Positions 49 to 63,833 of a stretch of DNA of 63,833 bases are shown here, in pieces. Source of the stretch: Candidatus Berkelbacteria bacterium (GTDB lineage: Bacteria; Patescibacteriota; UBA1384; XYA2-FULL-43-10; 1-14-0-10-43-13); contig JBAWZC010000005.1 of NCBI GenBank assembly GCA_037143235.1, forward strand, positions 1 to 63,833, given 5' to 3'. Each line of letters begins with the position of its first letter. The first letter of the stretch is position 1. A model generated the notes under the pieces. The model was not told the origin of the DNA, made no database searches, and worked only from the letters and a program-made list of their open reading frames with translations. The position numbers and the translations under genes are program-made.

Positions 49-184
49 CCACCATAATGTATTTACTTGTTCGGAAGCCGCCTCGCGCGAGCCTTTGGCT
101 CGCGCTTCGGCTGGCAAATTGTAGAGTAAATTGTATTGTTTTTCAAAATTCATTTTCAACTTTCCGTCCAGTAAAATGCGGTTC
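49..184. repeat. IR-L: left copy of a 136-bp inverted repeat (reverse complement of 1700..1835)
   Basis: Direct comparison: 49..184 matches the reverse complement of 1700..1835, apart from the 3-nt palindrome centre and one other mismatch. The mirror ORFs 57..281(+) and 1510..1827(-) give near-identical peptides (MYLLVRKPPRAS...). It contains the perfect palindrome GCGCGAGCC-TTT-GGCTCGCGC at 85..105. Confidence 0.9.
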
Positions 185-2683: not shown

Positions 2684-3238
2684 ATGCATTATCAGCAAAT
2701 CATCATTATCTTTATGCTTGTGGTCATCGTCGGCGTTGCTTTGTGGCAACTAATGATGATCGTGACCAGCCTTTTTGGCCTCTACTTGATGTCGACAAAT
2801 AGGGGAGCGATCAGAGCCATTTTGTCAAACATTGATATCAGAAAGGGCCAGATCTTCCTCGATCTTGGTTGCGGCAATGCCCAAAACCTGATCGTCGCCA
2901 GCAAACAATTTGGTCTGCAGGGCATCGGGATAGAAATATTTTTTGTCCAATATCTGGTTGCAAAGTTGAATGTTTGGCTCTCTGGCGAGTCAAAGAATAT
3001 CCGAATCTATCTTGGTGACTTTCGTAATTTTTCGGAGTTAATCAAAAAAGCTGATATCATCTATCTTTACCAACGGCAGGTATTGCTCGAGAAGATCGAG
3101 TCAGAATTGTTTTGTCAGGCAAAAAAAGGCAGCGAAATTGTTTGCCTCTCTTCGTATTTCGTGGACCATCGCCCCGCAAAGTCATTTCGAGTCAGAAATG
3201 TTTACACTGACGCGAGTGTGAGAGTGTATAAAGTTTAA
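2684..3238 (+). CDS. Class I SAM-dependent methyltransferase with an N-terminal TM helix
   Basis: Motif I LDLGCGNAQNL. I moved the start to the ATG at 2684 (MHYQQIIIIFMLVV...) because the longer ORF overlaps the divergent gene. Confidence 0.6.
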   Translation: MHYQQIIIIFMLVVIVGVALWQLMMIVTSLFGLYLMSTNRGAIRAILSNIDIRKGQIFLDLGCGNAQNLIVASKQFGLQGIGIEIFFVQYLVAKLNVWLSGESKNIRIYLGDFRNFSELIKKADIIYLYQRQVLLEKIESELFCQAKKGSEIVCLSSYFVDHRPAKSFRVRNVYTDASVRVYKV

Positions 3239-3276
3239 AATTATCTGATGAATAATAGCATTCGGCTCCACTGTTT

Positions 3277-3503
3277 GTCATTCCTGCGAAGGCAGGAATC
3301 TAGTAATTATTTAGCATTCGGATATGTTCTCCTTGGCGCTTACGCGCCAACAGGATTCCCGCTCATCGAGTCTGAGTCTGAGGGCTCTTCCCTCAGAGTC
3401 GAATGACCTTCGCAGGAATGACAAAAAGAAAGAGGTGAGGAACGAACGACAGAATGTTCTGTCATTGCGAGGAGTCTGCGACGCGGCAATCTATCATTTA
3501 GTC
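3277..3503. repeat. Cluster of GTCATT-type palindromic mini-elements
   Basis: GTCATTCCTGCGAAGGCAGGAATCTAG at 3277..3303. GGATTCCCGCTCATCGAGTCTGAG...CTCAGAGTCGAATGACCTTCGCAGGAATGAC at 3353..3422. GTCATTGCGAGGAGTCTGCGACGCGGCAATCTATCATTTAGTC at 3461..3503 is identical to 43671..43713. Confidence 0.9.
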
Positions 3504-3614
3504 CTGCGGGGATGGCAAAAAGAAAGAGGTCTTGATACCCCTTCGCTCTGTTCGTAAAAACGCTTGACCCCACTTCGCTTCACTTTTGTGAAGCTACGAG
3601 GGGTCTGCGAGCTC

Positions 3615-3645
3615 TTGACAAAATGTAAAGTTTACTTTACATTTT
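3615..3645 (+). promoter_or_regulatory. Promoter (TTGACA-17-TACATT) overlapped by a 26-bp palindromic operator
   Basis: TTGACA at 3615..3620. AAAATGTAAAGT-TT-ACTTTACATTTT at 3620..3645 has perfect 12-bp arms. The putative -10 TACATT is at 3638..3643, and the ATG at 3650 has no SD, so the transcript may be leaderless. Confidence 0.55.
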
Positions 3646-3649
3646 AGTT

Positions 3650-4384
3650 ATGGAAAACATTGAATCACAAATCGAGAACCACCTTCGCGAGGTTAGAAAA
3701 CATCGCAAACTTAGCCAGGAAGACTTGGCTGATGCTTTGGGCATCTCTCGTCAATCAATCATCGCTCTCGAGCAGGGTCGCTCTATGCCATCTCTGCCGT
3801 TGGCTGTTTCGATGTGTAAATATTTCAATACTGCCTTCGAAGACCTTTTCGAATTTGAGCGCGAGATCGAGGAAGAGATTGAGCGATCGTTTTCCGATAA
3901 TAATATAAAAATTATTAATGAGCCGATCACAGGCTCGGGAAAGGAGAAAGAAATGTTGACAATTGAACCGTGGCGACCAATGCGCGAAGCTACATCGCTT
4001 CGAGATGCGATGGATCGTTTGTTTGAAGATAGCGTCATCACTCCGAGTAAATCAGTGGCGATGCCGAAGATCGATATTATGGAAAAAGGCGACCAGATCG
4101 TAGTCAAGGCTGAACTTCCTGGGATGAAAGAGGAAGACATCAGTGTCGAGATCAAAGACAATATTATGACTATTTCTGGCGAGAAGAAAGACGAAGTCGA
4201 GCAAAAGGAAAAAGGCTATTTCTATCGTGAAAGCCATTCTGGTGCTTTTGCCCGAAGTTTTCACTTACCTGCCGAAGTTGTAGCCAGCAAGGCTGACGCT
4301 GAAATGAAGGCTGGTGTTCTCATCATCTCTGTGCCAAAAGTTGAGGAAAAAAAGGCTCAAAAGATCGAGATCAAGAAGAAATAA
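3650..4384 (+). CDS. XRE-family HTH domain fused to an Hsp20/alpha-crystallin small heat-shock domain
   Basis: N-terminus LSQEDLADALGISRQSIIALEQGRSMPSL is a Cro/C1-type HTH. The C-terminus PKIDIMEKGDQIVVKAELPGMKEEDISVEIKDNIMTISGEKK...GAFARSFHLP...GVLIISVPK is an ACD/Hsp20 fold. An internal SD AAGGAG plus an in-frame ATG at 3953 sits at the domain junction. Confidence 0.8.
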   Translation: MENIESQIENHLREVRKHRKLSQEDLADALGISRQSIIALEQGRSMPSLPLAVSMCKYFNTAFEDLFEFEREIEEEIERSFSDNNIKIINEPITGSGKEKEMLTIEPWRPMREATSLRDAMDRLFEDSVITPSKSVAMPKIDIMEKGDQIVVKAELPGMKEEDISVEIKDNIMTISGEKKDEVEQKEKGYFYRESHSGAFARSFHLPAEVVASKADAEMKAGVLIISVPKVEEKKAQKIEIKKK

Positions 4385-4400
4385 GTTCAGTCTCGCAATC

Positions 4401-4439
4401 AAAAAATCCCCATTGTCTCCTGATTGTGGGGATTTTTTT
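4401..4439 (+). terminator. Rho-independent terminator after the HTH-Hsp20 gene
   Basis: AAAAAATCCCCA...TGGGGATTTTTTT hairpin followed by a T-run. Confidence 0.7.
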
Positions 4440-4905
4440 GTAGTTATACGCTTATGTCATTTCCGTCATCTCAATCCCAGATAGCCCTGCACTTTTGTCG
4501 TCTCGACTCCCCGTCCTGCCCGCATTGCTACGCAAAGCGTTGCAGGCGGGAGGGGGCGGAGAGATCTTTTGTGCTAAGAGATCCTTCGATAAACTCAGGA
4601 TGACACTGCGTGTCAGATTTCTCCACGGAGCCTGCCATGAGCGAAGCCGAATGGGGTCGAAATGACAACGGATAATGCCCAATCGCAATGACAATTTGGT
4701 CTGTCGTTTCTATTTTCCCCTCTGCCATTCCCGCCTCTCCTGTCATTCCTGCGTAGGCAGGAATCTAGTGACAATATTAATTTTAAGATACGGTTTGCTA
4801 CGCGCTTACGCTGTAATGGGATTCACGCCTGCGCGGGAATGACAAAATTAGCTTACAAGTCTTTGCACTTACGGGCTTAAACACTTAAACACTTAAACAC
4901 TGTCT
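4440..4905. repeat. Non-coding repeat hotspot (several palindromic element families plus an 8-bp tandem repeat)
   Basis: A 102-bp element at 4742..4843 has GTCATTCCTGCG...CGCGGGAATGAC termini. CCCCGTCCTGCCCGC...GCAGGCGGGAGGGGG palindrome lies at about 4510..4556. CTTAAACA x3 lies at 4876..4901. The only ORFs are repeat-derived. Confidence 0.85.
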
Positions 4906-4993
4906 ATCTTGCTAGCTTTCTCAACAGTTGACCTAGCACCACGAAAGATGATATTATCACCAAGGTGCCAAAATTATTATAGGAGGTACGGAA

Positions 4994-5176
4994 TTGGGAG
5001 TAATGTTTTCCGAGGAAATGTTTCCCGGTGAAAAAGTCCGAAAAATGGACGGCAGCGCTGCTGCTGTCTACAGCTTCCCCAAAGAGAGGAAGCGACAACC
5101 CAAGAAGGTTGAATTGCTAGAGTGCAATCAACCAATCACCGCCAGCGTGGAATCAATTATTGATTCTCGCGATTAG
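4994..5176 (+). CDS. Small hypothetical protein (60 aa, TTG start)
   Basis: AGGAGG at 4981..4986 lies 7 nt upstream of the TTG at 4994. A hairpin (GATGCCCGGC...GCTGGGCATC) follows at about 5186..5212. No recognisable domain. Confidence 0.35.
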   Translation: MGVMFSEEMFPGEKVRKMDGSAAAVYSFPKERKRQPKKVELLECNQPITASVESIIDSRD

Positions 5177-5242
5177 CGAACAAAGATGCCCGGCTGTTCA
5201 AGCTGGGCATCGCACTGCAAAATTATTATCCCTATATATATC

Positions 5243-5271
5243 AAAAAACCATTCGTAAAGAATGGTTTTTT
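5243..5271. terminator. Bidirectional hairpin terminator downstream of tRNA-Val
   Basis: AAAAAACCATTC-GTAAA-GAATGGTTTTTT. Confidence 0.7.
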
Positions 5272-5273
5272 GA

Positions 5274-5350
5274 TGGTGCGCCCAAGAGGACTCGAACCTC
5301 TGACCTCTACAATGTCAATGTAACGCTCTAACCAACTGAGCTATGGGCGC
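5274..5350 (-). tRNA. tRNA-Val (anticodon GAC), CCA encoded
   Basis: The reverse complement GCGCCCATAGCTCAGTTGGTTAGAGCGTTACATTGACATTGTAGAGGTCAGAGGTTCGAGTCCTCTTGGGCGCACCA folds as a cloverleaf. The anticodon loop is TTGACAT. Confidence 0.95.
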
Positions 5351-5598
5351 ATTTCATATTACTCGCTCCGGACAACAAGAAAATACTACCAAATTATCGT
5401 GATTTTATCAATCATTGGATTTCTGAAGAAATTATTCACTGTCTTATTAGTTAATATTACTTTCTGGAAAAAGCGGGTTTGTTTATCATATTTTTTGGGT
5501 TAGAATAAGGTTAACAAAACAAAAACAAACCACAACCCGAGCGCTTACTGGCGCTTTTTTATACTCGCGGGTGCGTGGAAGCTAATTAAGGAAGAAAT

Positions 5599-14377: not shown

Positions 14378-15568
14378 TTATTTTTTAAATGAAATCTTGT
14401 CTAACATACGCCAGCGGCGTTCTTTTTCGGCCCAAGGAATTGGGTCGCCGAGAGCAAAAGCGGCAGTCCCTTCTCTTGGAGAGTACTTGTTGTTGAAAGC
14501 TTGAGCAAAATCAACTTTTTTCAGAATTGCTGCAGTTGCCCGAAAATCTTCCTCAGACTCTCCGGGGAAGCCGACAATTGTATCAGTAGTTAATATTATT
14601 TCTGGAATCGCTCTTTGTATTTTTTCAACTAAAGCAATATATTGTTCGATCGTATATGGTCGATTCATCGCCTTCAAGATTTTATTACTACCTGACTGAA
14701 AGGGCAGATGAATTTCCTTGGCAATTTTTGGTAGGCTGGCGATCGCTTCGATGATATCGTCACTCATATCCTTTGGATGGTTACTGGTGAATTTGATCAC
14801 GAAATCGCCAGATAGATCATTGAGTTTTTTAAGCAAAATTGCAAAATCATTTTTTGTTTTTTTATTTGTCATTCCGAGGTTGAGACTTCCTCCCCTGCCC
14901 GAGGGGAGGTTAGGTGGGGTGGGAGCAGGTGATCCATTAGTAGATTTGTGGATTCCCGCCTGCGCGGGAATGACAGAAGAGAAGGAGGGAATGACAGATA
15001 TTTTTGACGGGCTGTACGAATTAACATTTTGGCCCAAAAGAACAATCTCTTTTTGTCCCGAGGCGATCATTTTTTCTGCATCAGCAATAATATCGGCCAT
15101 TGGCCTCGAAACCTCTCTGCCTCGCGTGTAGGGGACCGCACAGTATGAACAGAAGTTGTTACACCCTTTCATAATTGGAATGTAGTTAGTTTTTAGTGGG
15201 TAGCTGGTAGTTTTTAGCAAAGTAGCTTTTGCACCAATAATTTTAGCTAGTTCGTCTAAGTGTTCGCCATCCCATATCTGGACGCCTTTTTTCAAGAATT
15301 TTGGTCGATCGTCTGGAAGGATACAGCCGGCCAATATAATTTTTTTGCCACTCCAGTTTTTGACCCAACTCATCGCTCTGTCAACTGCCGTTTTGCGAAC
15401 AGAACAGTTCAATAAAATGATCAGGTCGGCATCTTTTTCGCTTGATTCGATCAGTCCAAGATTCTTCAAAATGTATGCAATCCTTGCCCCATCCCATTCG
15501 TTATACTGACAACCAAGGATTTTGATAAAAAAACTTGAAGGTGATATTTTGTCGGCGTGTTCTTGCAT
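14378..15568 (-). CDS. MiaB-family radical-SAM methylthiotransferase with a repeat-derived insertion and no TRAM domain
   Basis: MTTase N-domain, CNNFCSYC radical-SAM cluster, LLGQNVNSY and FTSNHP motifs. A ~45-50 aa insert (..VIPSFSSVIPAQAGIHKSTNGSPAPTPPNLPSGRGGSLNLGMTNKK..) is encoded by GTCATT-type repeats. Confidence 0.85.
   Translation of the reverse strand: MQEHADKISPSSFFIKILGCQYNEWDGARIAYILKNLGLIESSEKDADLIILLNCSVRKTAVDRAMSWVKNWSGKKIILAGCILPDDRPKFLKKGVQIWDGEHLDELAKIIGAKATLLKTTSYPLKTNYIPIMKGCNNFCSYCAVPYTRGREVSRPMADIIADAEKMIASGQKEIVLLGQNVNSYSPSKISVIPSFSSVIPAQAGIHKSTNGSPAPTPPNLPSGRGGSLNLGMTNKKTKNDFAILLKKLNDLSGDFVIKFTSNHPKDMSDDIIEAIASLPKIAKEIHLPFQSGSNKILKAMNRPYTIEQYIALVEKIQRAIPEIILTTDTIVGFPGESEEDFRATAAILKKVDFAQAFNNKYSPREGTAAFALGDPIPWAEKERRWRMLDKISFKK
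14868..14996. repeat. GTCATT-type palindromic repeat block inside the MiaB-family CDS
   Basis: GTCATTCCGAGG...CCTCCCCTGCCCGAGGGGAGG...TGGATTCCCGCCTGCGCGGGAATGAC...GGGAATGAC. The same motifs occur at intergenic loci 38978..39048, 40946..41016 and about 4510..4556. Confidence 0.85.
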
Positions 15569-35194: not shown

Positions 35195-35335
35195 GTCGAT
35201 TGCCCTCTCTCCTGTCATTCCCGCCTCTCCTTCTGTCATTCCAGCGAAGGCTGGAATCCAGTCAAGATAAACTCCAGTAGGAATCTACAAACAGATTTTT
35301 CTTCTGGATTCCTGCTTTCGCAGGAATGACAAAGA
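35195..35335. repeat. GTCATT-type palindromic element cluster upstream of uvrA
   Basis: GTCATTCCCGCC..., GTCATTCCAGCGAAGGCTGGAATCCAG...GGAATCTACAAACAG...TGGATTCCTGCTTTCGCAGGAATGAC. Confidence 0.85.
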
Positions 35336-38344: not shown

Positions 38345-38420
38345 ACTGTCATTCCCGCGCAGGTCATTCGACTCTGAGGGATGAGATCTTGAGCTCAGAC
38401 TCGATGAGCGAGAATCCACA
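38345..38420. repeat. GTCATT-type repeat (GTCATTCGACTCTGAGGG...CTCAGACTCGATGAGCGAGAATC family)
   Basis: Inverted relative of the element at 3353..3422. Confidence 0.8.
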
Positions 38421-38489: not shown

Positions 38490-38831
38490 CTATTCGACGT
38501 TGAAATGACCAGGTGCCGTGATCATAACGACAATTTTTTCGGGTGCATCCTCTCGCACAAAGAGATCGCAACCTTCGTACTGGCCTTCGGTGATGAGAAA
38601 GTTGAGCTCCGTTGGTATTGATGAAATGAATACCAACGGAGGTTTTTCTTCTGTGGGTAGAGCGTTCTTGATTGCCATCTCAATAACATTGAGAGGCATG
38701 GCTCCATCGTTTAAAAAGTATGCACAATCAACGATGGTTATACCAGGTTCGGGTGCCGGAAGGGCTCCAGTAGTAGAGAGCAATCCCGTCGCTTCTGTAA
38801 AAAATTTACAGAAACCTCCAAAAACAAACAT
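38490..38831 (-). CDS. Hypothetical protein (GC-richer orphan)
   Basis: 113-aa ORF. A GAGCGGCCC...GGGCCGCTC hairpin lies just downstream (38455..38486). No motif recognised. Confidence 0.4.
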   Translation of the reverse strand: MFVFGGFCKFFTEATGLLSTTGALPAPEPGITIVDCAYFLNDGAMPLNVIEMAIKNALPTEEKPPLVFISSIPTELNFLITEGQYEGCDLFVREDAPEKIVVMITAPGHFNVE

Positions 38832-38977
38832 TTCTTTGCCTCCTTCTCGTAACTCTTTCCGAGCTACACCAGCATTTAATCATTTTTTGGCTAGTTTGTA
38901 AATATGCGCTTGGGCAAATGAGTAATTCTCATCTCGTGTCATTCTTGCCGACTAAATTGCCACGCCTTTCTTCAATT

Positions 38978-39048
38978 GTCATTCCCGCGCAGGCGGGAAT
39001 CTACAAATAGTGAATCTTTTGGTGGATTCCCGCCTGCGCGGGAATGAC
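38978..39048. repeat. 71-bp composite palindromic element, orientation A
   Basis: GTCATTCCCGCGCAGGCGGGAATCTA-CAAATAGTGAATCTTTTGG-TGGATTCCCGCCTGCGCGGGAATGAC. Confidence 0.95.
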
Positions 39049-39202
39049 AAAAAATTTGGTTATTCTTCGAGCGAGCTGCGAGTCGAGAAGTGTTTGCTTG
39101 ATAATTTATAGCTTAAACACTTATCAGCTTGCTGACTTTTTGCTGACTGTAGATTGATAAAAATGAGCTTTTCGGCTATGATTGATTTGTTGTTGCCGAT
39201 CA

Positions 39203-40813: not shown

Positions 40814-40945
40814 GATATTAGCATAACAACATCTGGTCATATCGTCAAGGGCAAAAGCAAATAAGCTGGACAGCTGGTAAGTGTTTAAGCTGGGTAATTT
40901 TTCTTTTGTCATTGACGAATTTTGTCATTTCTGCGCCTCACTCCT

Positions 40946-41016
40946 GTCATTCCCGCGCAGGCGGGAATCTACCAAAAGATTCATTATTTGTGGATTCCCG
41001 CCTGCGCGGGAATGAC
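40946..41016. repeat. 71-bp composite palindromic element, orientation B (inverted relative to 38978..39048)
   Basis: The arms are the same. The spacer CCAAAAGATTCATTATTTG is the reverse complement, with 1 mismatch, of the spacer at 39004..39022. Confidence 0.95.
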
Positions 41017-41145
41017 AAAGTGAAAACAAAAATAATTGTGATGTTGTAACAAAACAAAAAAATTCAAATTATCATTTTTTTCGCATTTTTGTCGTAAATA
41101 GAATAAAATAAAGAAGTAGGGCAAACCAATAAAGAAATGAGGTAA

Positions 41146-41925: not shown

Positions 41926-42064
41926 CCAGCACAGATTACAGATCGACACGGATTGATAACACAGATAAATCCAGCACAGATTACAGATTGACACTGATTG
42001 ATAGCCCAAAATATGTACTATTAATCTGTAGTAATCTGTATAAATCTGTAATCTGTGTTGCTGC
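41926..42064. repeat. Cargo-less inverted array of CACAGATTACAGAT motifs
   Basis: The left half has CAGCACAGATTACAGAT x2 plus variants. The right half has ATCTGTAGTAATCTGTATAAATCTGTAATCTGTG. The same motif flanks the GxxExxY gene. Confidence 0.85.
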
Positions 42065-43558: not shown

Positions 43559-43670
43559 AAATGCCCATTTAATATTATTATGTGATTATTATATCGAAAC
43601 CTGCATCTAAACAAAAGGTGATGGATGATTTTTCTTGATTTTTCATTTGCCGATTACTCTTTACTTGTTT

Positions 43671-43868
43671 GTCATTGCGAGGAGTCTGCGACGCGGCAAT
43701 CTATCATTTAGTCATTGGCCGTTCTCGGCAAGCTCGAACCATAATTTTCAGAGTATCTCTTCTATTTTATTCTTCGAGACCTGAAATGTCCCCTTTGGGG
43801 TGGGTCTGCGAGTCAAGAAGTAATGATGGATTGCCACGCTTTGGAAAACCCAATAGCTCGCAATGACA
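43671..43868. repeat. GTCATTGCGAG-type palindromic elements
   Basis: 43671..43713 is identical to 3461..3503. 43832..43868 is the inverted partner of 61190..61238 (GTCATTGCGAGCTATTGGGTTTTCCAAAGCGTGGCAATCCATCATT). Confidence 0.9.
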
Positions 43869-44596: not shown

Positions 44597-44760
44597 ATGG
44601 TCATCCCACAGCACAGATTACAGATCTACACAGAATTACAGATACAAGCAGGGCCAGCACAGATTACGGATTATACGCCAACACAGATTACAGATTTCAC
44701 AGAATTACAGAAGATAAAAATCAGACCAATGCAGATCGGACAGATTGATAGAGATCAATG
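44597..44760. repeat. Array of CACAGATTACAGAT-type motifs (left flank of the GxxExxY cassette)
   Basis: At least 6 copies or variants (CACAGATTACAGAT, CACAGAATTACAGA, CACAGATTACGGAT) with irregular spacing. Confidence 0.85.
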
Positions 44761-45156
44761 CAAGTTTGCGATTCTTTTGATTTTCACTCCGTCTGGGGAA
44801 AATCGTACGATTAATCCCAACTTTAACTTGCTGTATTTTAGATATCCAAGTAGCTGGGTGTAGGCAGTTTTGTAATTGCGAAACCCAGTCTTGAGCTCAA
44901 TAACAACTTTATCGTCAACAAGAAAATCAAAATATCTTTTGGCAATTAACTTGTCGTTGATTTTGATAGGGAAATATAGTTCTCTTGAAAATTTGATATT
45001 GTTCGCAGTGAGCAGCTCGGCAAGAGCCTTCGAATATACTTTTTCGGTTTGCCCTTGGCCGATCTGGTTAAATATCTCATAGCAAAATCCATTGATTTTG
45101 TATGTTAAATCAGTGTAAACAAAGTTATTTTCATTTTTGTCTATATTCTCAGGCAT
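44755..45156 (-). CDS. GxxExxY family protein (PD-(D/E)XK nuclease-like)
   Basis: GQGQTEKVYSKAL (GxxExxY), DFLVDDKVVIELK (D..ExK) and QLLGYLK are typical of this family. Confidence 0.8.
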   Translation of the reverse strand: MPENIDKNENNFVYTDLTYKINGFCYEIFNQIGQGQTEKVYSKALAELLTANNIKFSRELYFPIKINDKLIAKRYFDFLVDDKVVIELKTGFRNYKTAYTQLLGYLKYSKLKLGLIVRFSPDGVKIKRIANLH

Positions 45157-45164
45157 CTGTTCTA

Positions 45165-45320
45165 TGCTTCAAAAATGTTTTCAATCAGTAAATCAGTACG
45201 ATCTGTAATCTGTGCTGGCCTAATTTTTATTTTCTGTAATTCTGTATGATCTGTAATCTGTGTTGTTGGTGTTGTTATGTTCTGTAAATCAGTAAGATCT
45301 GTAATCTGTGTTGACTACGA
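45165..45320. repeat. Inverted array of the same motif (ATCTGTAATCTGTG), right flank of the cassette
   Basis: At least 5 copies or variants in the orientation opposite to 44597..44760. Confidence 0.85.
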
Positions 45321-46190: not shown

Positions 46191-46423
46191 ACTATCATTG
46201 TATCACGCTATGAGCGCGATAAAAAGTTGATAAATGCGAGATGTTTTTTGTAGTGGGAGAAGTAACATGGTCATAGAAAAATTAAAACCAAATTTGTGTT
46301 GACAAATTATTGAGATTAATCTATTGTTGGATTAACAAGATGCTTGGGACAAATCCCAGTGGGAAAGTTTCGACCGTTCGGGTCAGGCTACCGAGCAATC
46401 TGACCTCGAGAAATCGGGGTTTT

Positions 46424-46972
46424 TTATTTTCCGATTATTACAATGATTTTTTTCTGAAGTTTTTTGTAAAATTTTGTAAATCGTACTTCGGGCTTTTTCT
46501 TATCAAAATACGATCTTGATAGTCCGGCCACCATATCCGCGATCCTTATTCCAGCAGATTGACTATCTTTGACTGTTTTAAGTTTTTTGACTGATATGCT
46601 CTTGCCGCGCAAGATATTCTTAATTTTATTTTCGTACCATTTGGGTTTCTTGCCGTCGATGTAAATATTTCTTATATTTCTTTCGACAATAGTGTGTAAT
46701 AAGATTTTTTCCAGCTCAGCTGCAGGATCAACAGGATTTTTAACTACTGCAATTTTGACCTTAAAGTCGAGTTTCAGTGTTTCATTCATAAATTTTTCTT
46801 TGACACTCCAAACCGTCTCTGCCCAGTGAAAAGAGTCAATTTCTAAATCTTTTTCTATTTCAATAATTTTCTTTTCTATCTCTGGATAATCGTCGAACTC
46901 TACATAAGCCAAAGCAAAGGTTGAGTGATCAACCCTTTTGTGAATCCCAGATTCGTCAATAAAAATCATCAT
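46424..46972 (-). CDS. DUF3800-like protein
   Basis: The N-terminal MMIFIDESGIHK plus FHWAE resemble the DUF3800 signature. Confidence 0.5.
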   Translation of the reverse strand: MMIFIDESGIHKRVDHSTFALAYVEFDDYPEIEKKIIEIEKDLEIDSFHWAETVWSVKEKFMNETLKLDFKVKIAVVKNPVDPAAELEKILLHTIVERNIRNIYIDGKKPKWYENKIKNILRGKSISVKKLKTVKDSQSAGIRIADMVAGLSRSYFDKKKPEVRFTKFYKKLQKKIIVIIGK

Positions 46973-61059: not shown

Positions 61060-61303
61060 GAATTACAAGTTGCCGTTTGTCATTCCGGACTCGATCCGGA
61101 ATCCCGTCACAGCGTAAGCGTGTAGCAGAACGCATCTTAACGCTAATAATATTACTAGATTCCTGCCTGCGCAGGAATGACAAAACAATTCGTCGTTGCG
61201 AGCTATTGGGTTTTCCAAAGCGTGGCAATCCATCATGTATTGTAAATGATAGATTGCCGCGCCTGCCTGCCGGTAGGTAGGTCGCCGACTCCTCGCAATG
61301 ATA
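61060..61303. repeat. Cluster of GTCATT-type elements
   Basis: GTCATTCCGGACTCGATCCGGAATCCCGTCAC, GATTCCTGCCTGCGCAGGAATGAC, 61190..61238 and 61244..61303 (inverted copies of the 43.7-43.9 kb elements). Confidence 0.9.
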
Positions 61304-61383
61304 GGCAGTTTGAGAATATCAAAAAGAAAATAATAAATTTATCAGCTTAAACACTGACTAGCTTAAACACTTACCAGCTGTTT

Positions 61384-62488: not shown

Positions 62489-62538
62489 ACTGCCTTCGCT
62501 GTCATTCCAGTTGCCCTTATAATTCCGAACCCATGCGT

Positions 62539-62662
62539 GTCATTCCTGCGGAGGCAGGAATCTAGAAACGGTATTAGCCTTAAGATGTGTTTTCCTTGGC
62601 GCTTACGACCCAAAGGGTCCCCTTCGGGGCTGTGACAGGATTCCTGCCTGCGCCGGAATGAC
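62539..62662. repeat. 124-bp MITE-like element with GTCATTCCTGCG...CGCCGGAATGAC termini
   Basis: Its internal segment TTAGCCTTAAGATGTGTTTTCCTTGGCGCTTACG is shared with 3311..3345 and 4783..4811. Confidence 0.9.
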
Positions 62663-62704
62663 AAATTACGATAATCAAATAATTAATATTATTTAAAGAC
62701 AAAC

Positions 62705-63724: not shown

Positions 63725-63833
63725 ATTTTGTACCCGTCATTCCTGCGAAGGCAGTTCTCCATAAAGTCGAACCATAACATTAATAACTTCACGTAATTCG
63801 TCCGGACTCTGTCCGGCGATGGATAGGGTATCC

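What the first reader, a model, noticed from the sequence alone, without database searches (positions are those of the whole stretch)
3277..4905. Very dense superfamily of GTCATT...AATGAC palindromic mini-elements, concentrated in hotspots next to RNA genes and operon boundaries
By eye, more than 30 GTCATT/AATGAC termini occur in the window. They fall into several sub-families:
- GTCATTCC(C/T)GCG-N-CGC(G/A)GGAATGAC, with an ATTCCC-N8-GGGAAT core reminiscent of Neisseria dRS3-type repeats.
- GTCATTGCGAGGAGTCTGCGACGCGGCAATC.
- GTCATTGCGAGCTATTGGG...GGCAATCC.
- GTCATTCGACTCTGAGGG...

They combine into 71-, 102- and 124-bp MITE-like composites at 38978..39048, 40946..41016, 4742..4843 and 62539..62662.

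The hotspots are 3.27-3.62, 4.44-4.90, 35.2-35.3, 38.3-39.1, 40.9-41.0, 43.6-43.9, 61.06-61.44 and 62.5-62.7 kb, with a partial copy at 63.73 kb. Exact 43-bp copies (3461..3503 = 43671..43713) imply recent spread. No transposase for them is visible in the window.
Basis: seen in the sequence. Interest (0 to 1): 0.65.

Follow-up and report, generated by a model that had tools for sequence, protein, structure and literature searches.

The report
Ssn-type hairpin repeats in Patescibacteria
The window is full of a known kind of short DNA hairpin repeat (the CGTC-tagged, dRS3/NTS type that small Ssn nucleases recognise), here in an ultra-small Patescibacteria genome, where one copy sits in frame inside a gene.

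Summary
The bare hexamer GTCATT is not enriched (54 found, 44 expected). The full units are: ATTCCY-N8-RGGAAT occurs 10 times against 0.04 expected, and TGTCATTSCNNNG 18 times against 0.32. Of the 54 hexamers, 34 lie in the 14% of the window that is intergenic.

The basic unit is asymmetric: a (T/C)GTC tag, an 8-bp stem starting with AT, a 4-nt loop, then C. It mostly occurs as inverted dimers with the tags facing outward and conserved spacers.

This is the CGTC-tagged REP superfamily (Di Nocera 2013; CGTC-1 = Neisseria dRS3 = Rickettsia RPE-6). It is also the NTS/SRM motif that Chenal et al. (2025) showed to be the ssDNA site of the 94-aa GIY-YIG nuclease SsnA.

The window has no ssn gene. 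Identical hairpins bracket ssn genes in metagenome contigs and in a Patescibacteria MAG.

Two dimer families occur at unrelated loci in both orientations, with no target-site duplication. One dimer lies in frame in a MiaB-like gene, in a loop that also carries such inserts in many other Patescibacteria.

Verdict: a new member of a known kind. RAYT is the wrong enzyme to look for. Mobilisation by Ssn is inferred, not shown.

The parts
3276..3423 (.). Family-II inverted dimer d1. Left unit A is at 3276-3303 (+): TGTCATTCCTGCGAAGGCAGGAATCTAG. The spacer holds a GGCGCTTACGCGCC mini-hairpin. Right unit A is at 3354-3423 (-) and carries a 45-nt D unit (3364-3408) nested between its loop and its 3' arm.
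   Evidence: alignment A3; folds as one long DNA hairpin, z = -8.0
3460..3503 (+). Unit B (TGTCATTGCGAGGAGTCTGCGACGCGGCAATC) plus tail. It is an exact 44-nt copy of 43670-43713.
   Evidence: family D16; only a 5-bp basal stem and no better than shuffles (z = 0.74)
4455..4693 (-). Cluster of degenerate tagged units: E at 4580-4605 (-), GTCATCCTGAG..AGGATC; F at 4616-4667 (-), GTCATTTCGACC..GAGAAATC; partial tags at 4455 (+) and 4687-4693 (-).
   Evidence: weak folds; ORFs here have no Pfam family
4725..4844 (.). Half-unit 'stutter' at 4725-4740, followed by family-II dimer d2 at 4741-4844.
   Evidence: families D1, D2, D9, D10; alignment A3; fold z = -5.0
14867..14997 (-). Intragenic dimer inside the MiaB/RimO-like ORF 14378-15568 (-), read in frame. 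It comprises a degenerate unit at 14867 (+), an inner CCTCCCC..GGGGAGG palindrome, unit A at 14948-14975 (-) encoding VIPAQAGIH, and a stutter at 14976-14997.
   Evidence: alignment A1; residues 190-236 modelled as a disordered loop
35199..35331 (.). Two half-unit stutters (35199-35233) followed by dimer d4 at 35234-35331. It lies between the bactofilin and uvrA genes.
38347..38417 (+). Singleton compound unit: an A hairpin with a D unit (38363-38407) nested at the same loop position as in d1.
   Evidence: a related compound unit is in metagenome locus L131 (91% over 67 nt to the d1 copy)
38937..39049 (.). Partial tag at 38937-38962, then family-I dimer d5 at 38977-39049 (71-bp core, both arms exact dRS3 ATTCCC-N8-GGGAAT). 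It lies 155 nt upstream of tRNA-Gln.
   Evidence: fold -37.2 kcal/mol, z = -12.8
40907..41017 (.). Partial tags at 40907 and 40923, then family-I dimer d6 at 40945-41017. It is the same element as d5 in the opposite orientation (3 mismatches by my count, about 96%). It lies about 135 nt from RNase P RNA.
   Evidence: alignment A4
43670..43868 (.). Heterodimer of unit B (+) at 43670-43701 and unit C (-) at 43830-43868, with a spacer of about 130 bp.
61078..61182 (.). Family-II dimer d7 in reverse orientation. One arm has an 8-bp stem and a 5-nt loop (GTCATTCCGGACTCGATCCGGAATC).
   Evidence: alignment A3
61194..61303 (.). Heterodimer of unit C (+, tag CGTC, GTT instead of ATT) and unit B (-), which carries a 20-nt internal insertion.
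62500..62663 (.). Partial tag at 62500-62520, then family-II dimer d8 at 62538-62663.
   Evidence: alignment A3; fold z = -5.8
63735..63760 (+). Degenerate single unit A (CGTCATTCCTGCGAAGGCAGTTCTCC) with a broken 3' arm.
   Evidence: family D1

Best explanation
**What they are.** The repeats are CGTC-tagged REP hairpins of the dRS3/NTS/SRM class, sitting in a Patescibacteria (CPR) genome from a lake-water metagenome.

**Anatomy.** Each core unit (A) has an unpaired (T/C)GTC tag, an 8-bp stem that starts with AT, a 4-nt loop, and a C directly after the palindrome. Units mostly sit as inverted dimers with the tags facing outward. The dimers have conserved spacers and can fold as one long hairpin in single-stranded DNA.

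**Shown here:**
- The sequence and structure match the published family definitions.
- Hairpins identical to unit A bracket roughly 94-119-aa GIY-YIG genes in other contigs. These genes share their length and three invariant residues (one position off the mutated active-site residues) with SsnA.
- A Patescibacteria MAG has an ssn-like gene flanked by a close variant of unit A.
- The dimers, spacers included, recur at unrelated loci in both orientations, with sharp ends and no target-site duplication.
- One dimer is carried in frame inside a gene.

**Inferred:**
- An Ssn-type nuclease encoded elsewhere in this genome, or formerly present, binds these hairpins when the DNA is single-stranded and nicks just upstream of the tag.
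- The dimers are non-autonomous derivatives of hairpin-ssn-hairpin units. They multiply through a single-strand process that depends on Ssn, analogous to REPINs with RAYT or to IS200/IS605.
- As in Neisseria, the sites may also let Ssn cut incoming single-stranded DNA. This could matter because cultivated Saccharibacteria are naturally competent.
For: **Match to the family definition**
- 9 units fit the NTS consensus with up to 3 mismatches (0 expected). 6 fit the strict SRM pattern (0.16 expected).
- There are 10 ATTCCY-N8-RGGAAT cores (0.04 expected), 5 of them exact dRS3.
- The 8-bp stem and 4-nt loop are confirmed by DNA folding, z = -4.6 to -5.2.
- The definitions come from PMC3733652 and PMC11893778.

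**Structure is under selection**
- I took all GTCAT-N16-ATC frames in the metagenome loci, leaving out the seeds that fetched them. 84 of 147 have perfectly complementary arms (0.04 expected), in 13 stem variants.

**Link to the enzyme**
- 5 of 120 metagenome contigs fetched with the unit-A pattern encode a small GIY-YIG protein.
- In L153, L176 and L138 the gene is bracketed by inverted GTCATTCCTGCG-N-AGGCAGGAATC units matching window unit A. In L178 the brackets are stem variants (ATTCCCGC and ATCCCCGC).
- The L153 protein is 94 aa. Y7, Y18 and E65 are invariant across the five proteins. SsnA is 94 aa, with Y6, Y17 and E64 as the mutated residues.
- A Patescibacteria MAG (GCA_023379465.1) has an ssn-like gene flanked by the same kind of hairpins.

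**Behaviour as units**
- Family II has 4 copies, one reversed. Family I has 2 copies in opposite orientation, differing at 3 positions by my count.
- Homology stops at TGTCATT and AATGACA, and there is no duplication of flanking sequence.
- A 45-nt D unit is nested in one hairpin loop of d1 and is absent from d2, d7 and d8.

**Spread beyond the window**
- In the source run, depth is 52-140x in repeat bins against about 13x elsewhere. 94 of 234 contigs lie only partly on the window.
- That run holds many dimers with other spacers.
- A family-II dimer and a compound unit occur in locus L131.

**Gain or loss**
- MiaB-like orthologues P0009 and P0020 are about 93% identical outside a 56-aa insert. 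One has it and one lacks it.
Against: - The window has no ssn gene or remnant. The rest of the genome could not be searched.
- Fragments resembling ssn exist in the source run, but at depths of 2-26x. They cannot be assigned to this 13x genome.
- No transposition activity has been shown for any Ssn protein. Chenal et al. showed only ssDNA binding, cutting and an effect on transformation.
- No filled or empty site was seen for any window element itself.
- None of 80 uvrA loci from other genomes, several Saccharibacteria among them, carries such hairpins. No orthologous comparison of the intergenic hotspots was therefore possible.
- Units B, E and F do not fold better than shuffles and fail the SRM pattern. 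Unit C folds only moderately (z = -2.3).
- The 21-nt half-unit stutter is not explained by this model.
Confidence: 0.75

Rival explanations
1. They are domesticated host sites rather than mobile DNA. Arrays of Ssn sites would modulate recombination with incoming single-stranded DNA, as NTS/SsnA does in Neisseria. Copy number would grow by recombination, not transposition. This overlaps with the best explanation on what binds the sites and differs on how the copies arise.
For: - Chenal et al. showed that NTS plus SsnA lowers transformation about 5-fold.
- Saccharibacteria are naturally competent (abstracts of PMC10187176 and PMC10633639).
- The hotspots are mosaic arrays like NIMEs.
Against: - Dimers with conserved spacers sit at unrelated loci in both orientations, with sharp ends.
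- There is a nested insertion in a hairpin loop.
- In-frame copies lie inside genes.
- These features are easier to explain by insertion than by recombination between arrays.
Confidence: 0.3
2. They act as RNA-level or transcription elements selected for host function: terminators, mRNA stabilisers, or donors of a -35-like ATGACA hexamer.
For: - The elements lie in intergenic DNA next to promoters and RNA genes.
- The element ends read ATGACA, and some score as -35-like hexamers.
- Di Nocera et al. argue that many REPs are transcribed.
Against: - None of the hairpins is followed by a T run. None appears among the terminator-like sites, whereas the hsp20 terminator at 4415-4433 does.
- The elements occur between divergent, convergent and tandem genes alike, and inside a coding region.
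- SsnA does not act on RNA.
- No RNA data exist for this organism.
Confidence: 0.1
3. They are GTAG-type REPs or REPINs mobilised by a RAYT (a Y1 HUH transposase).
For: They share the overall architecture of REPINs: inverted dimers with a spacer that fold into a long hairpin.
Against: - The tag is GTC, not GTAG, in every unit.
- Di Nocera et al. found no RAYT flanked by CGTC repeats.
- No HUH or Y1 gene is in the window.
- The genes bracketed by these hairpins elsewhere are GIY-YIG.
Confidence: 0.04
4. They are classical MITEs derived from a DDE-transposase insertion sequence whose terminal inverted repeats end in TGTCATT.
For: They have inverted ends, small size (71-146 bp), multiple copies, and no coding capacity.
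Against: - There is no target-site duplication at any of the six aligned dimers.
- Each 'terminal repeat' is itself a self-complementary hairpin that also occurs alone.
- No insertion sequence with such ends is in the window or in the 120 metagenome loci.
Confidence: 0.04
5. They are an assembly artefact from collapsed or chimeric repeats.
For: The independent Logan contigs of the source run break at the repeats. The exact order inside 3414-3474 and 4544-4877 therefore rests on the k141 assembly alone.
Against: - The Logan contigs carry the same units and reach into them from both sides.
- The MiaB-like ORF is continuous across its element, and both halves belong to one protein.
- The same units occur in hundreds of unrelated public contigs.
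Confidence: 0.02

Closest known systems
Neisseria NTS / dRS3 repeats and the SsnA nuclease (Chenal et al. 2025, PMC11893778; NIME arrays, Bentley et al. 2007, PMC1797815)
   Same: - Almost the same sequence: NTS is CGTCATTCCCGCGMAVGCGGGAATCYRG, and window units read TGTCATTCCYGCGNAGGCRGGAATCYAS.
- Five units hold the exact dRS3 core.
- The hairpin geometry is the same.
- Units are clustered into mosaic arrays with spacer modules.
- The hairpin-ssn-hairpin architecture is seen in contigs that carry the same hairpin.
   Different: - The host is a Patescibacteria, not a proteobacterium.
- The first base is T rather than C.
- The window has no ssn gene.
- Arrays are short (1-4 units).
- One dimer lies in frame inside a gene.
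- Binding and cutting are untested here.
CGTC-tagged REP superfamily, family CGTC-1 (Di Nocera et al. 2013, PMC3733652)
   Same: The tag is CGTC or TGTC. The stem is 8 bp and starts with A then T. The loop is 4 nt. There is a C(C/T)A-like tail. Units mostly form inverted dimers with 20-100-bp spacers that are often conserved. Intragenic copies occur.
   Different: [quoted passage not shown] It found no dedicated enzyme. Units B and C have only 5-bp basal stems with long, irregular loops, so they fit none of the four families well.
Rickettsia palindromic elements (RPE-6 = CGTC-1, RPE-4 = CGTC-4, per PMC3733652)
   Same: Palindromic repeats are carried in frame inside genes that probably still work. 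The inserts encode tens of residues in surface loops.
   Different: The host differs. Here the same loop of a MiaB-like enzyme carries different inserts in many lineages.
REPINs with RAYT (GTAG-tagged REPs)
   Same: They work alike in outline: a tagged hairpin, an inverted dimer as the copied unit, and a single-copy gene bracketed by the same hairpins as the presumed mobiliser.
   Different: The tag is GTAG there and GTC here. The enzyme is a HUH/Y1 transposase there and a GIY-YIG nuclease here. RAYT-family transposition chemistry is established, whereas none is known for Ssn.
[quoted passage not shown]
   Same: The ends are recognised as single-stranded hairpins. Cleavage occurs a few nucleotides outside the hairpin. 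There is no target-site duplication.
   Different: The ends here are inverted copies of one hairpin rather than distinct left and right ends. There is no TnpA or TnpB gene, and no defined target tetranucleotide was seen.

Membership tests
CGTC-1 REP / NTS / SRM | Unpaired 5' tag CGTC (TGTC allowed) | tested here: met
   18 copies of TGTCATTSCNNNG against 0.32 expected. Units at 61194 and 63735 start with CGTC.
CGTC-1 REP / NTS / SRM | 8-bp stem beginning with A then T, and a 4-nt loop | tested here: met
   Hairpin scan. DNA folds give z = -5.15 and -4.59. One unit has a 5-nt loop (61079-61103).
CGTC-1 REP / NTS / SRM | A C directly after the palindrome, then a short tail (CCA / CYRG) | tested here: met
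   All A units end in GGAATC followed by TAG, TAC, CAG or CAC.
CGTC-1 REP / NTS / SRM | Fits the published NTS consensus or the SRM search pattern | tested here: met
   9 hits to NTS with up to 3 mismatches (0 in shuffles). 6 hits to the strict SRM pattern (0.16 +/- 0.44). Units B, C, E and F do not fit.
CGTC-1 REP / NTS / SRM | Organised as inverted dimers or clusters | tested here: met
   Eight A-type dimers and two B/C heterodimers.
CGTC-1 REP / NTS / SRM | A cd10448-type GIY-YIG (ssn) gene in the same genome, typically flanked by the motif | not testable with these tools
   None in the window, and the rest of the genome is not held. Indirect evidence: identical hairpins bracket ssn-like genes in L153, L176 and L138, with stem variants in L178, and in the Patescibacteria MAG locus L205. 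The CDD family itself could not be scored. The precomputed Pfam hit for P0354 is PF01541 GIY-YIG.
CGTC-1 REP / NTS / SRM | Bound and cut as single-stranded DNA by the cognate Ssn | not testable with these tools
   A biochemical property, shown only for Neisseria and Wolbachia proteins.
Rickettsia-type protein-coding palindromes (RPE) | The repeat is inserted in frame in an otherwise intact gene and is absent from orthologues | tested here: met
   The MiaB-like ORF stays open through 14867-14997. Short orthologues lack the segment. The model shows a disordered loop at residues 190-236 within a confident fold.
RAYT-associated REP / REPIN | GTAG tag and a RAYT gene flanked by the repeats | tested here: not met
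   The tag is GTC. No Y1/HUH gene is among the called genes.
Classical MITE | Target-site duplication and a parent insertion sequence with matching terminal repeats | tested here: not met
   The flanks of six aligned dimers share no direct repeat. No insertion sequence is in the window.
Intrinsic terminator | G+C-rich hairpin followed by a T run | tested here: not met
   No unit is among the terminator-like sites in 3000-5400. Tails read CTAG or CCAC.

The most novel reading that the evidence does not exclude
The hairpin-ssn-hairpin units and their gene-less dimers are a true single-strand DNA transposon system driven by a GIY-YIG nuclease, a chemistry not yet shown for any prokaryotic transposon. 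The system would be active across Patescibacteria and would move between phyla, partly on phages. It would add new peptide loops to essential enzymes through in-frame insertions. The 21-nt half-unit stutter would be its insertion footprint.
Probability: 0.3. Interest if true: 0.65.

Novelty: new member of a known kind. Interest (0 to 1): 0.35.

Why it matters
Patescibacteria have very small genomes with little spare DNA. Even so, the repeats here add up to about 17% of the intergenic length, and one sits inside an enzyme gene. That is a notable load of selfish or regulatory DNA for such a genome.

Neither Di Nocera et al. (2013), in its list of phyla, nor the main text of Chenal et al. (2025) mentions Patescibacteria or CPR.

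The data give a compact natural test case for the open question left by the Ssn paper: is Ssn only a nuclease that trims incoming DNA, or does it also copy these hairpins? The test case has autonomous-looking units of 360-377 bp, short gene-less dimers with the same ends, a nested insertion, and filled and empty alleles of a MiaB-like gene.

Because cultivated Saccharibacteria are naturally transformable, an effect on DNA uptake could be tested directly.

Tried and rejected
1. **Orthologous comparison around uvrA.** The genome-contig scan returned 80 loci. The closest relative is only 68% identical in UvrA, and none of the loci holds a tagged hairpin.
2. **Generic GIY-YIG consensus as a protein query**. 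It returned small GIY-YIG proteins with no useful taxon names. It served only to build an HMM.
3. **Search for ssn in the window.** I used a GIY..YIG motif pattern, Pfam on 10 ORFs near hotspots, and tblastn plus hmmsearch --max with 126 Ssn-like proteins. Only hairpin-encoded peptides matched.
4. **The 113-aa ORF at 38490-38831 (-)**, which sits between hairpins like an ssn gene. It has no Pfam family and no GIY-YIG motif. I did not pursue it.
5. **Laying the source run on ssn loci**. Only short conserved pieces matched, at mixed depths.
6. **BLAST of all window dimers against the 120 metagenome loci**. Only L131 shares more than the bare hairpin, so close relatives were not sampled.
7. **Supplementary tables of Chenal et al.** They are not held.
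8. **NCBIfam and PDB searches of the Ssn-like proteins**. They gave only weak hits (group I intron endonuclease, UPF0213). The cd10448 assignment rests on length, motif positions and context.
9. **Nucleotide alignment of the filled and empty miaB-like alleles**. The insert is a mosaic of several palindromes, and the junction has diverged. No clean insertion point or duplication could be read.
Full report

Yes. The sequence at 3277-4905 and at the other named hotspots holds the motifs described.

The bare hexamer GTCATT/AATGAC is not enriched over the whole window. There are 54 matches against 44.4 +/- 7.8 in dinucleotide shuffles. However, 34 of the 54 fall in the 14% of the window that is intergenic (p = 4e-16).

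Every longer form of the motif is far above chance:
- ATTCCY-N8-RGGAAT: 10 found, 0.04 expected.
- TGTCATTSCNNNG: 18 found, 0.32 expected.

The exact copy is 44 nt, not 43 (3460-3503 = 43670-43713).

Together the elements cover about 1.6 kb, equal to about 17% of the intergenic length.

**2. Anatomy**

The basic unit is not a GTCATT...AATGAC palindrome. It is an asymmetric tagged hairpin: T/C-GTC, then ATTCCYGC, a 4-nt loop, GCRGGAAT, then C and a short tail (CTAG, CTAC, CCAG or CCAC). As single-stranded DNA it folds into an 8-bp stem with a 4-nt loop. No shuffle out of 200 folds as well. AATGAC is simply the tag of a second unit on the other strand.

Most units form inverted dimers with the tags facing outward. 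The dimers fold into one long hairpin, for example -37.2 kcal/mol and z = -12.8 for 38977-39049.

The dimers fall into families defined by their spacers:
- **Family II** has four copies: 3276-3423, 4741-4844, 62538-62663, and 61078-61182 in reverse orientation (alignment A3).
- **Family I** has two copies, 38977-39049 and 40945-41017, in opposite orientations. By my count they differ at 3 positions (alignment A4).

Similarity stops at TGTCATT on one side and AATGACA(AA) on the other. The flanks share no direct repeat, so there is no target-site duplication.

In copy d1 a 45-nt hairpin of another type (D) sits between the loop and the 3' arm of the right-hand unit. It is absent from the other three family-II copies. 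The same compound unit stands alone at 38347-38417. A related copy is in an unrelated metagenome contig, L131, which also holds a family-II dimer.

Units B, C, E and F share the GTCAT...ATC frame but have only a 5-bp basal stem. B, E and F fold no better than shuffles, and C folds moderately (z = -2.3).

**3. What it is**

A full-text search for the sequence itself led to Chenal et al. 2025 (PMC11893778). They define the 28-nt Neisseria Transformation Sequence as CGTCATTCCCGCGMAVGCGGGAATCYRG. It contains the older dRS3 repeat ATTCCC-N8-GGGAAT. They also define a looser 'Ssn-related motif' (SRM). The window holds 9 matches to the NTS with up to 3 mismatches (none in 100 shuffles) and 6 matches to the strict SRM pattern (0.16 expected).

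Di Nocera et al. 2013 (PMC3733652) had already placed such repeats in a 'CGTC-tagged REP' superfamily. Family CGTC-1 has the tag CGTC or TGTC, an 8-bp stem beginning with A then T, a 4-nt loop and a CCA-like tail. Its units mostly form inverted dimers with 20-100-bp spacers. They equate it with Neisseria dRS3 and with Rickettsia RPE-6. Unit A meets each of these features.

The clustered, mosaic layout of the hotspots also matches the description of Neisseria intergenic mosaic elements (PMC1797815).

The host here is a Patescibacteria:
- UvrA is closest to Candidatus Saccharibacteria (68%) and 'Patescibacteria group' MAGs.
- The MiaB-like protein is closest to Berkelbacteria and Patescibacteria MAGs.
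- The DNA comes from a lake-water metagenome.

Di Nocera et al. listed five phyla for CGTC repeats. The main text of Chenal et al. never mentions Patescibacteria, Saccharibacteria or 'candidate phyla'. A literature search found nothing on such repeats in CPR.

**4. The partner enzyme**

Chenal et al. showed that the 94-aa GIY-YIG protein SsnA binds the NTS only as single-stranded DNA and cuts a few nucleotides upstream of the tag. The tag bases matter for cutting, and the C after the palindrome matters for binding. The ssn genes are often bracketed by the motif.

The window has no such gene. This was tested by a motif scan, by Pfam on ORFs next to the hotspots, by the precomputed Pfam hits of the called genes, and by tblastn plus an unfiltered HMM search with 126 Ssn-like proteins.

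I then scanned JGI metagenomes for TGTCATTCCTGCGNAGGCAGGAATCTAG. Five of these encode a small GIY-YIG protein.
- In L153, L176 and L138 the gene is bracketed by inverted, tag-outward hairpins matching window unit A (GTCATTCCTGCG-N-AGGCAGGAATC).
- In L178 the brackets are stem variants.
- The bracketed units in L153, L176 and L178 span 360-377 bp.

The L153 protein is 94 aa. Y7, Y18 and E65 are invariant in the five-protein alignment, one position off the Y6, Y17 and E64 mutated in SsnA.

A profile of these proteins finds more than 8000 relatives. One is annotated by NCBI as from a 'Patescibacteria group bacterium'. It lies on a contig with ribosomal protein genes and is flanked by three hairpins:
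- GTCATTCCCGCGAAAGCGGGAATC
- GTCATTCCCATGAAAATGGGAATC
- GTCATGCCCGACCCGATCGGGCATC

So Patescibacteria do carry ssn with this hairpin class. The window's dimers have the same ends as gene-carrying units.

A more distant GIY-YIG gene in L157 is flanked by CGTCTTTGCGAG...GTGGCAATC units that resemble window units B and C. This is a single example and only a lead.

**5. Evidence on spread and turnover**

- **Source run.** The repeat bins reach 52-140x against about 13x for the rest. 94 of 234 contigs match the window only in part. Joints link window hairpins to unknown sequence or to other spacers. Many further dimers with 14-39-nt spacers appear when ssn loci are used as bait.
- **Stem variation.** I took every GTCAT-N16-ATC frame in the 120 metagenome loci, excluding the seeds. 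84 of 147 have perfectly complementary arms (0.04 expected), spread over 13 stem variants. The stem is thus kept through changes on both sides while GTC, AT and the final C stay fixed. This is what recognition of a hairpin by a protein predicts.
- **Range of hosts.** The same 24-mer occurs in contigs from 30% to 58% G+C. It also occurs in at least 118 IMG/VR viral contigs. Four of these have ssn beside it, at 64-68% G+C. This suggests horizontal movement.

**6. The copy inside a gene**

The ORF at 14378-15568 (-) is a MiaB/RimO-type radical SAM methylthiotransferase. The dimer at 14867-14997 lies inside it and the frame stays open. It encodes ...SVIPSFSSVIPAQAGIHKSTNGSPAPTPPNLPSGRGGSLNLGMTNKK....

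Short orthologues (334-345 aa) run QNVNSYE-FGFADLL without this segment. Seventeen other aligned Patescibacteria orthologues carry segments of variable length in exactly this loop. Many carry peptides typical of the tagged hairpins, such as VIPAKAGIQ, DSRLHGNDK and DSRVRGND. There is a second hot spot about 80 residues upstream.

DNA from two of these orthologues shows the hairpins themselves, in frame. P0009 and P0020 are about 93% identical outside a 56-aa insert that only P0009 has. Gain or loss is therefore recent at that scale.

An AlphaFold model of the window protein is confident overall (mean pLDDT 77.5). Residues 190-236 are unstructured, with pLDDT below 50. This fits a tolerated surface loop. 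It is the behaviour known from Rickettsia palindromic elements.

**7. How it most likely works**

Shown:
- The class of the repeats.
- Their hairpin form.
- Their dimer families and sharp ends.
- The bracketing of ssn genes by identical hairpins elsewhere, including a close variant in a Patescibacteria.

Inferred:
- An Ssn nuclease encoded elsewhere in this genome recognises unit A when the DNA is single-stranded, during replication, repair or DNA uptake.
- It nicks upstream of the tag.
- The dimers are gene-less derivatives of hairpin-ssn-hairpin units, copied by a process that depends on that nick. This would parallel REPINs with RAYT, or IS200/IS605. Chenal et al. raise the possibility but did not test it.

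A host-level role in trimming incoming DNA, as in Neisseria, is compatible with this. It is plausible because Saccharibacteria are naturally competent.

Rivals:
- The hairpins are not intrinsic terminators. They have no T run, and none is called in 3000-5400.
- They are not RAYT-type REPs, because the tag is wrong.
- They are not classical MITEs, because there is no duplication and no parent insertion sequence.
- They are not an assembly artefact, because independent contigs carry them.

**8. What remains unexplained**

Many full units are preceded, about 21 nt upstream, by a truncated copy of the tag plus the 5' arm and about 9 pyrimidine-rich bases.
- In the window this occurs at 4725, 14976-14997, 35213 and 40923.
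- In other Patescibacteria it occurs in L205, L208 and L209.

No matching 3' half follows the dimer, so it is not a simple nested insertion. It may be a footprint of the copying mechanism.

Whether this genome has ssn could not be tested. Pieces resembling ssn exist in the source run, but at depths of 2-26x.

**9. Verdict**

The finding is real and well described, but the kind is known. It is the CGTC-tagged REP / dRS3 / NTS / SRM class, whose partner protein was identified in 2025.

What is new is the host group, the clear families of gene-less dimers sharing ends with ssn-carrying units, and the recurrent in-frame insertions in one enzyme loop across Patescibacteria. I rate it a new member of a known kind, with moderate interest.

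Noticed in passing
window 49-184 and 1700-1835: A 136-nt inverted repeat (97% complementary) brackets a 526-aa ORF that looks like a large serine recombinase (324-1904 +; family not checked with a profile search). The right arm covers the ORF's 3' end and abuts the 3' end of the tmRNA gene (1830-2214 -). The left arm encodes the same C-terminal peptide on the other strand. This could be an invertible segment, or an integrated element at the tmRNA gene cut by the contig end.
   Followed up: partly
window 41930-42057, 44612-44695, 45201-45310: A second, unrelated repeat family, CACAGATTACAGAT, occurs 9 times against 0.5 expected. It forms short arrays of 45-48-nt period, in opposite orientations around genes that include a PDDEXK_3 nuclease-like gene (44755-45156 -).
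   Followed up: partly
window 4876-4903, 39112-39123, 40878-40889 (-), 61346-61373: The motif (AG)CTTAAACACTTA(YCAGCT) occurs 7 times. Each copy lies about 30-70 nt outside the end of a hairpin dimer. Copies lie upstream of tRNA-Gln and of RNase P RNA. It could be a promoter or regulator site, or another module of the mosaic arrays. The count is only borderline against shuffles: 1 of 100 shuffles reaches 7.
   Followed up: partly
window 4725-4740, 14976-14997, 35199-35233, 40923-40944; L205 9973-9992; L208 10631-10672 and 20796-20816; L209 about 2240: Half-unit 'stutter': a truncated tag plus 5' arm and about 9 pyrimidine-rich bases lie roughly 21 nt upstream of a full hairpin. It recurs in several Patescibacteria, including inside coding sequence, where it gives a 7-residue repeat (IPAYSSVIPAYSSVIPAKAGIQ). 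It remains unexplained.
   Followed up: partly
window 14889-14925; L211 3300-3440: A different palindrome type, CCTCCCC-N-GGGGAGG, encodes peptides such as PSGRGG or PLNLGGG. It sits inside the MiaB-like inserts next to the tagged hairpins, in the window and in P0009. It is probably a separate repeat family.
   Followed up: no
window 3650-4384 (+): A single open reading frame joins an XRE-type HTH domain (residues 12-66) to an Hsp20 domain (142-241) with no stop between them. It is either an unusual fusion or two genes in the same frame, the second starting at the internal Met in the sequence EMLTIEPW.
   Followed up: no
window 46332-46405 (+) and 46424-46972 (-): A DUF3800-II RNA (Rfam RF02961, 61 bits) lies next to a DUF3800 protein gene, as the family name predicts.
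   Followed up: no
window 38490-38831 (-): A 113-aa ORF with no Pfam family sits between tagged hairpins (38347-38417 and 38937-39049), in the position an ssn gene would hold. It has no GIY-YIG motif.
   Followed up: partly
L157 56-97, 494-535, 686-745: A divergent small GIY-YIG gene is flanked by CGTCTTTGCGAG...GTGGCAATC units in direct orientation. These resemble window units B and C and hint at a second nuclease-hairpin pair.
   Followed up: partly
L214-L331 (IMG/VR): The exact unit-A pattern occurs in at least 118 viral contigs. Four have an ssn gene next to it, all at 64-68% G+C. This is a possible route for spread between lineages. Some may be prophage regions of NTS-rich hosts.
   Followed up: partly
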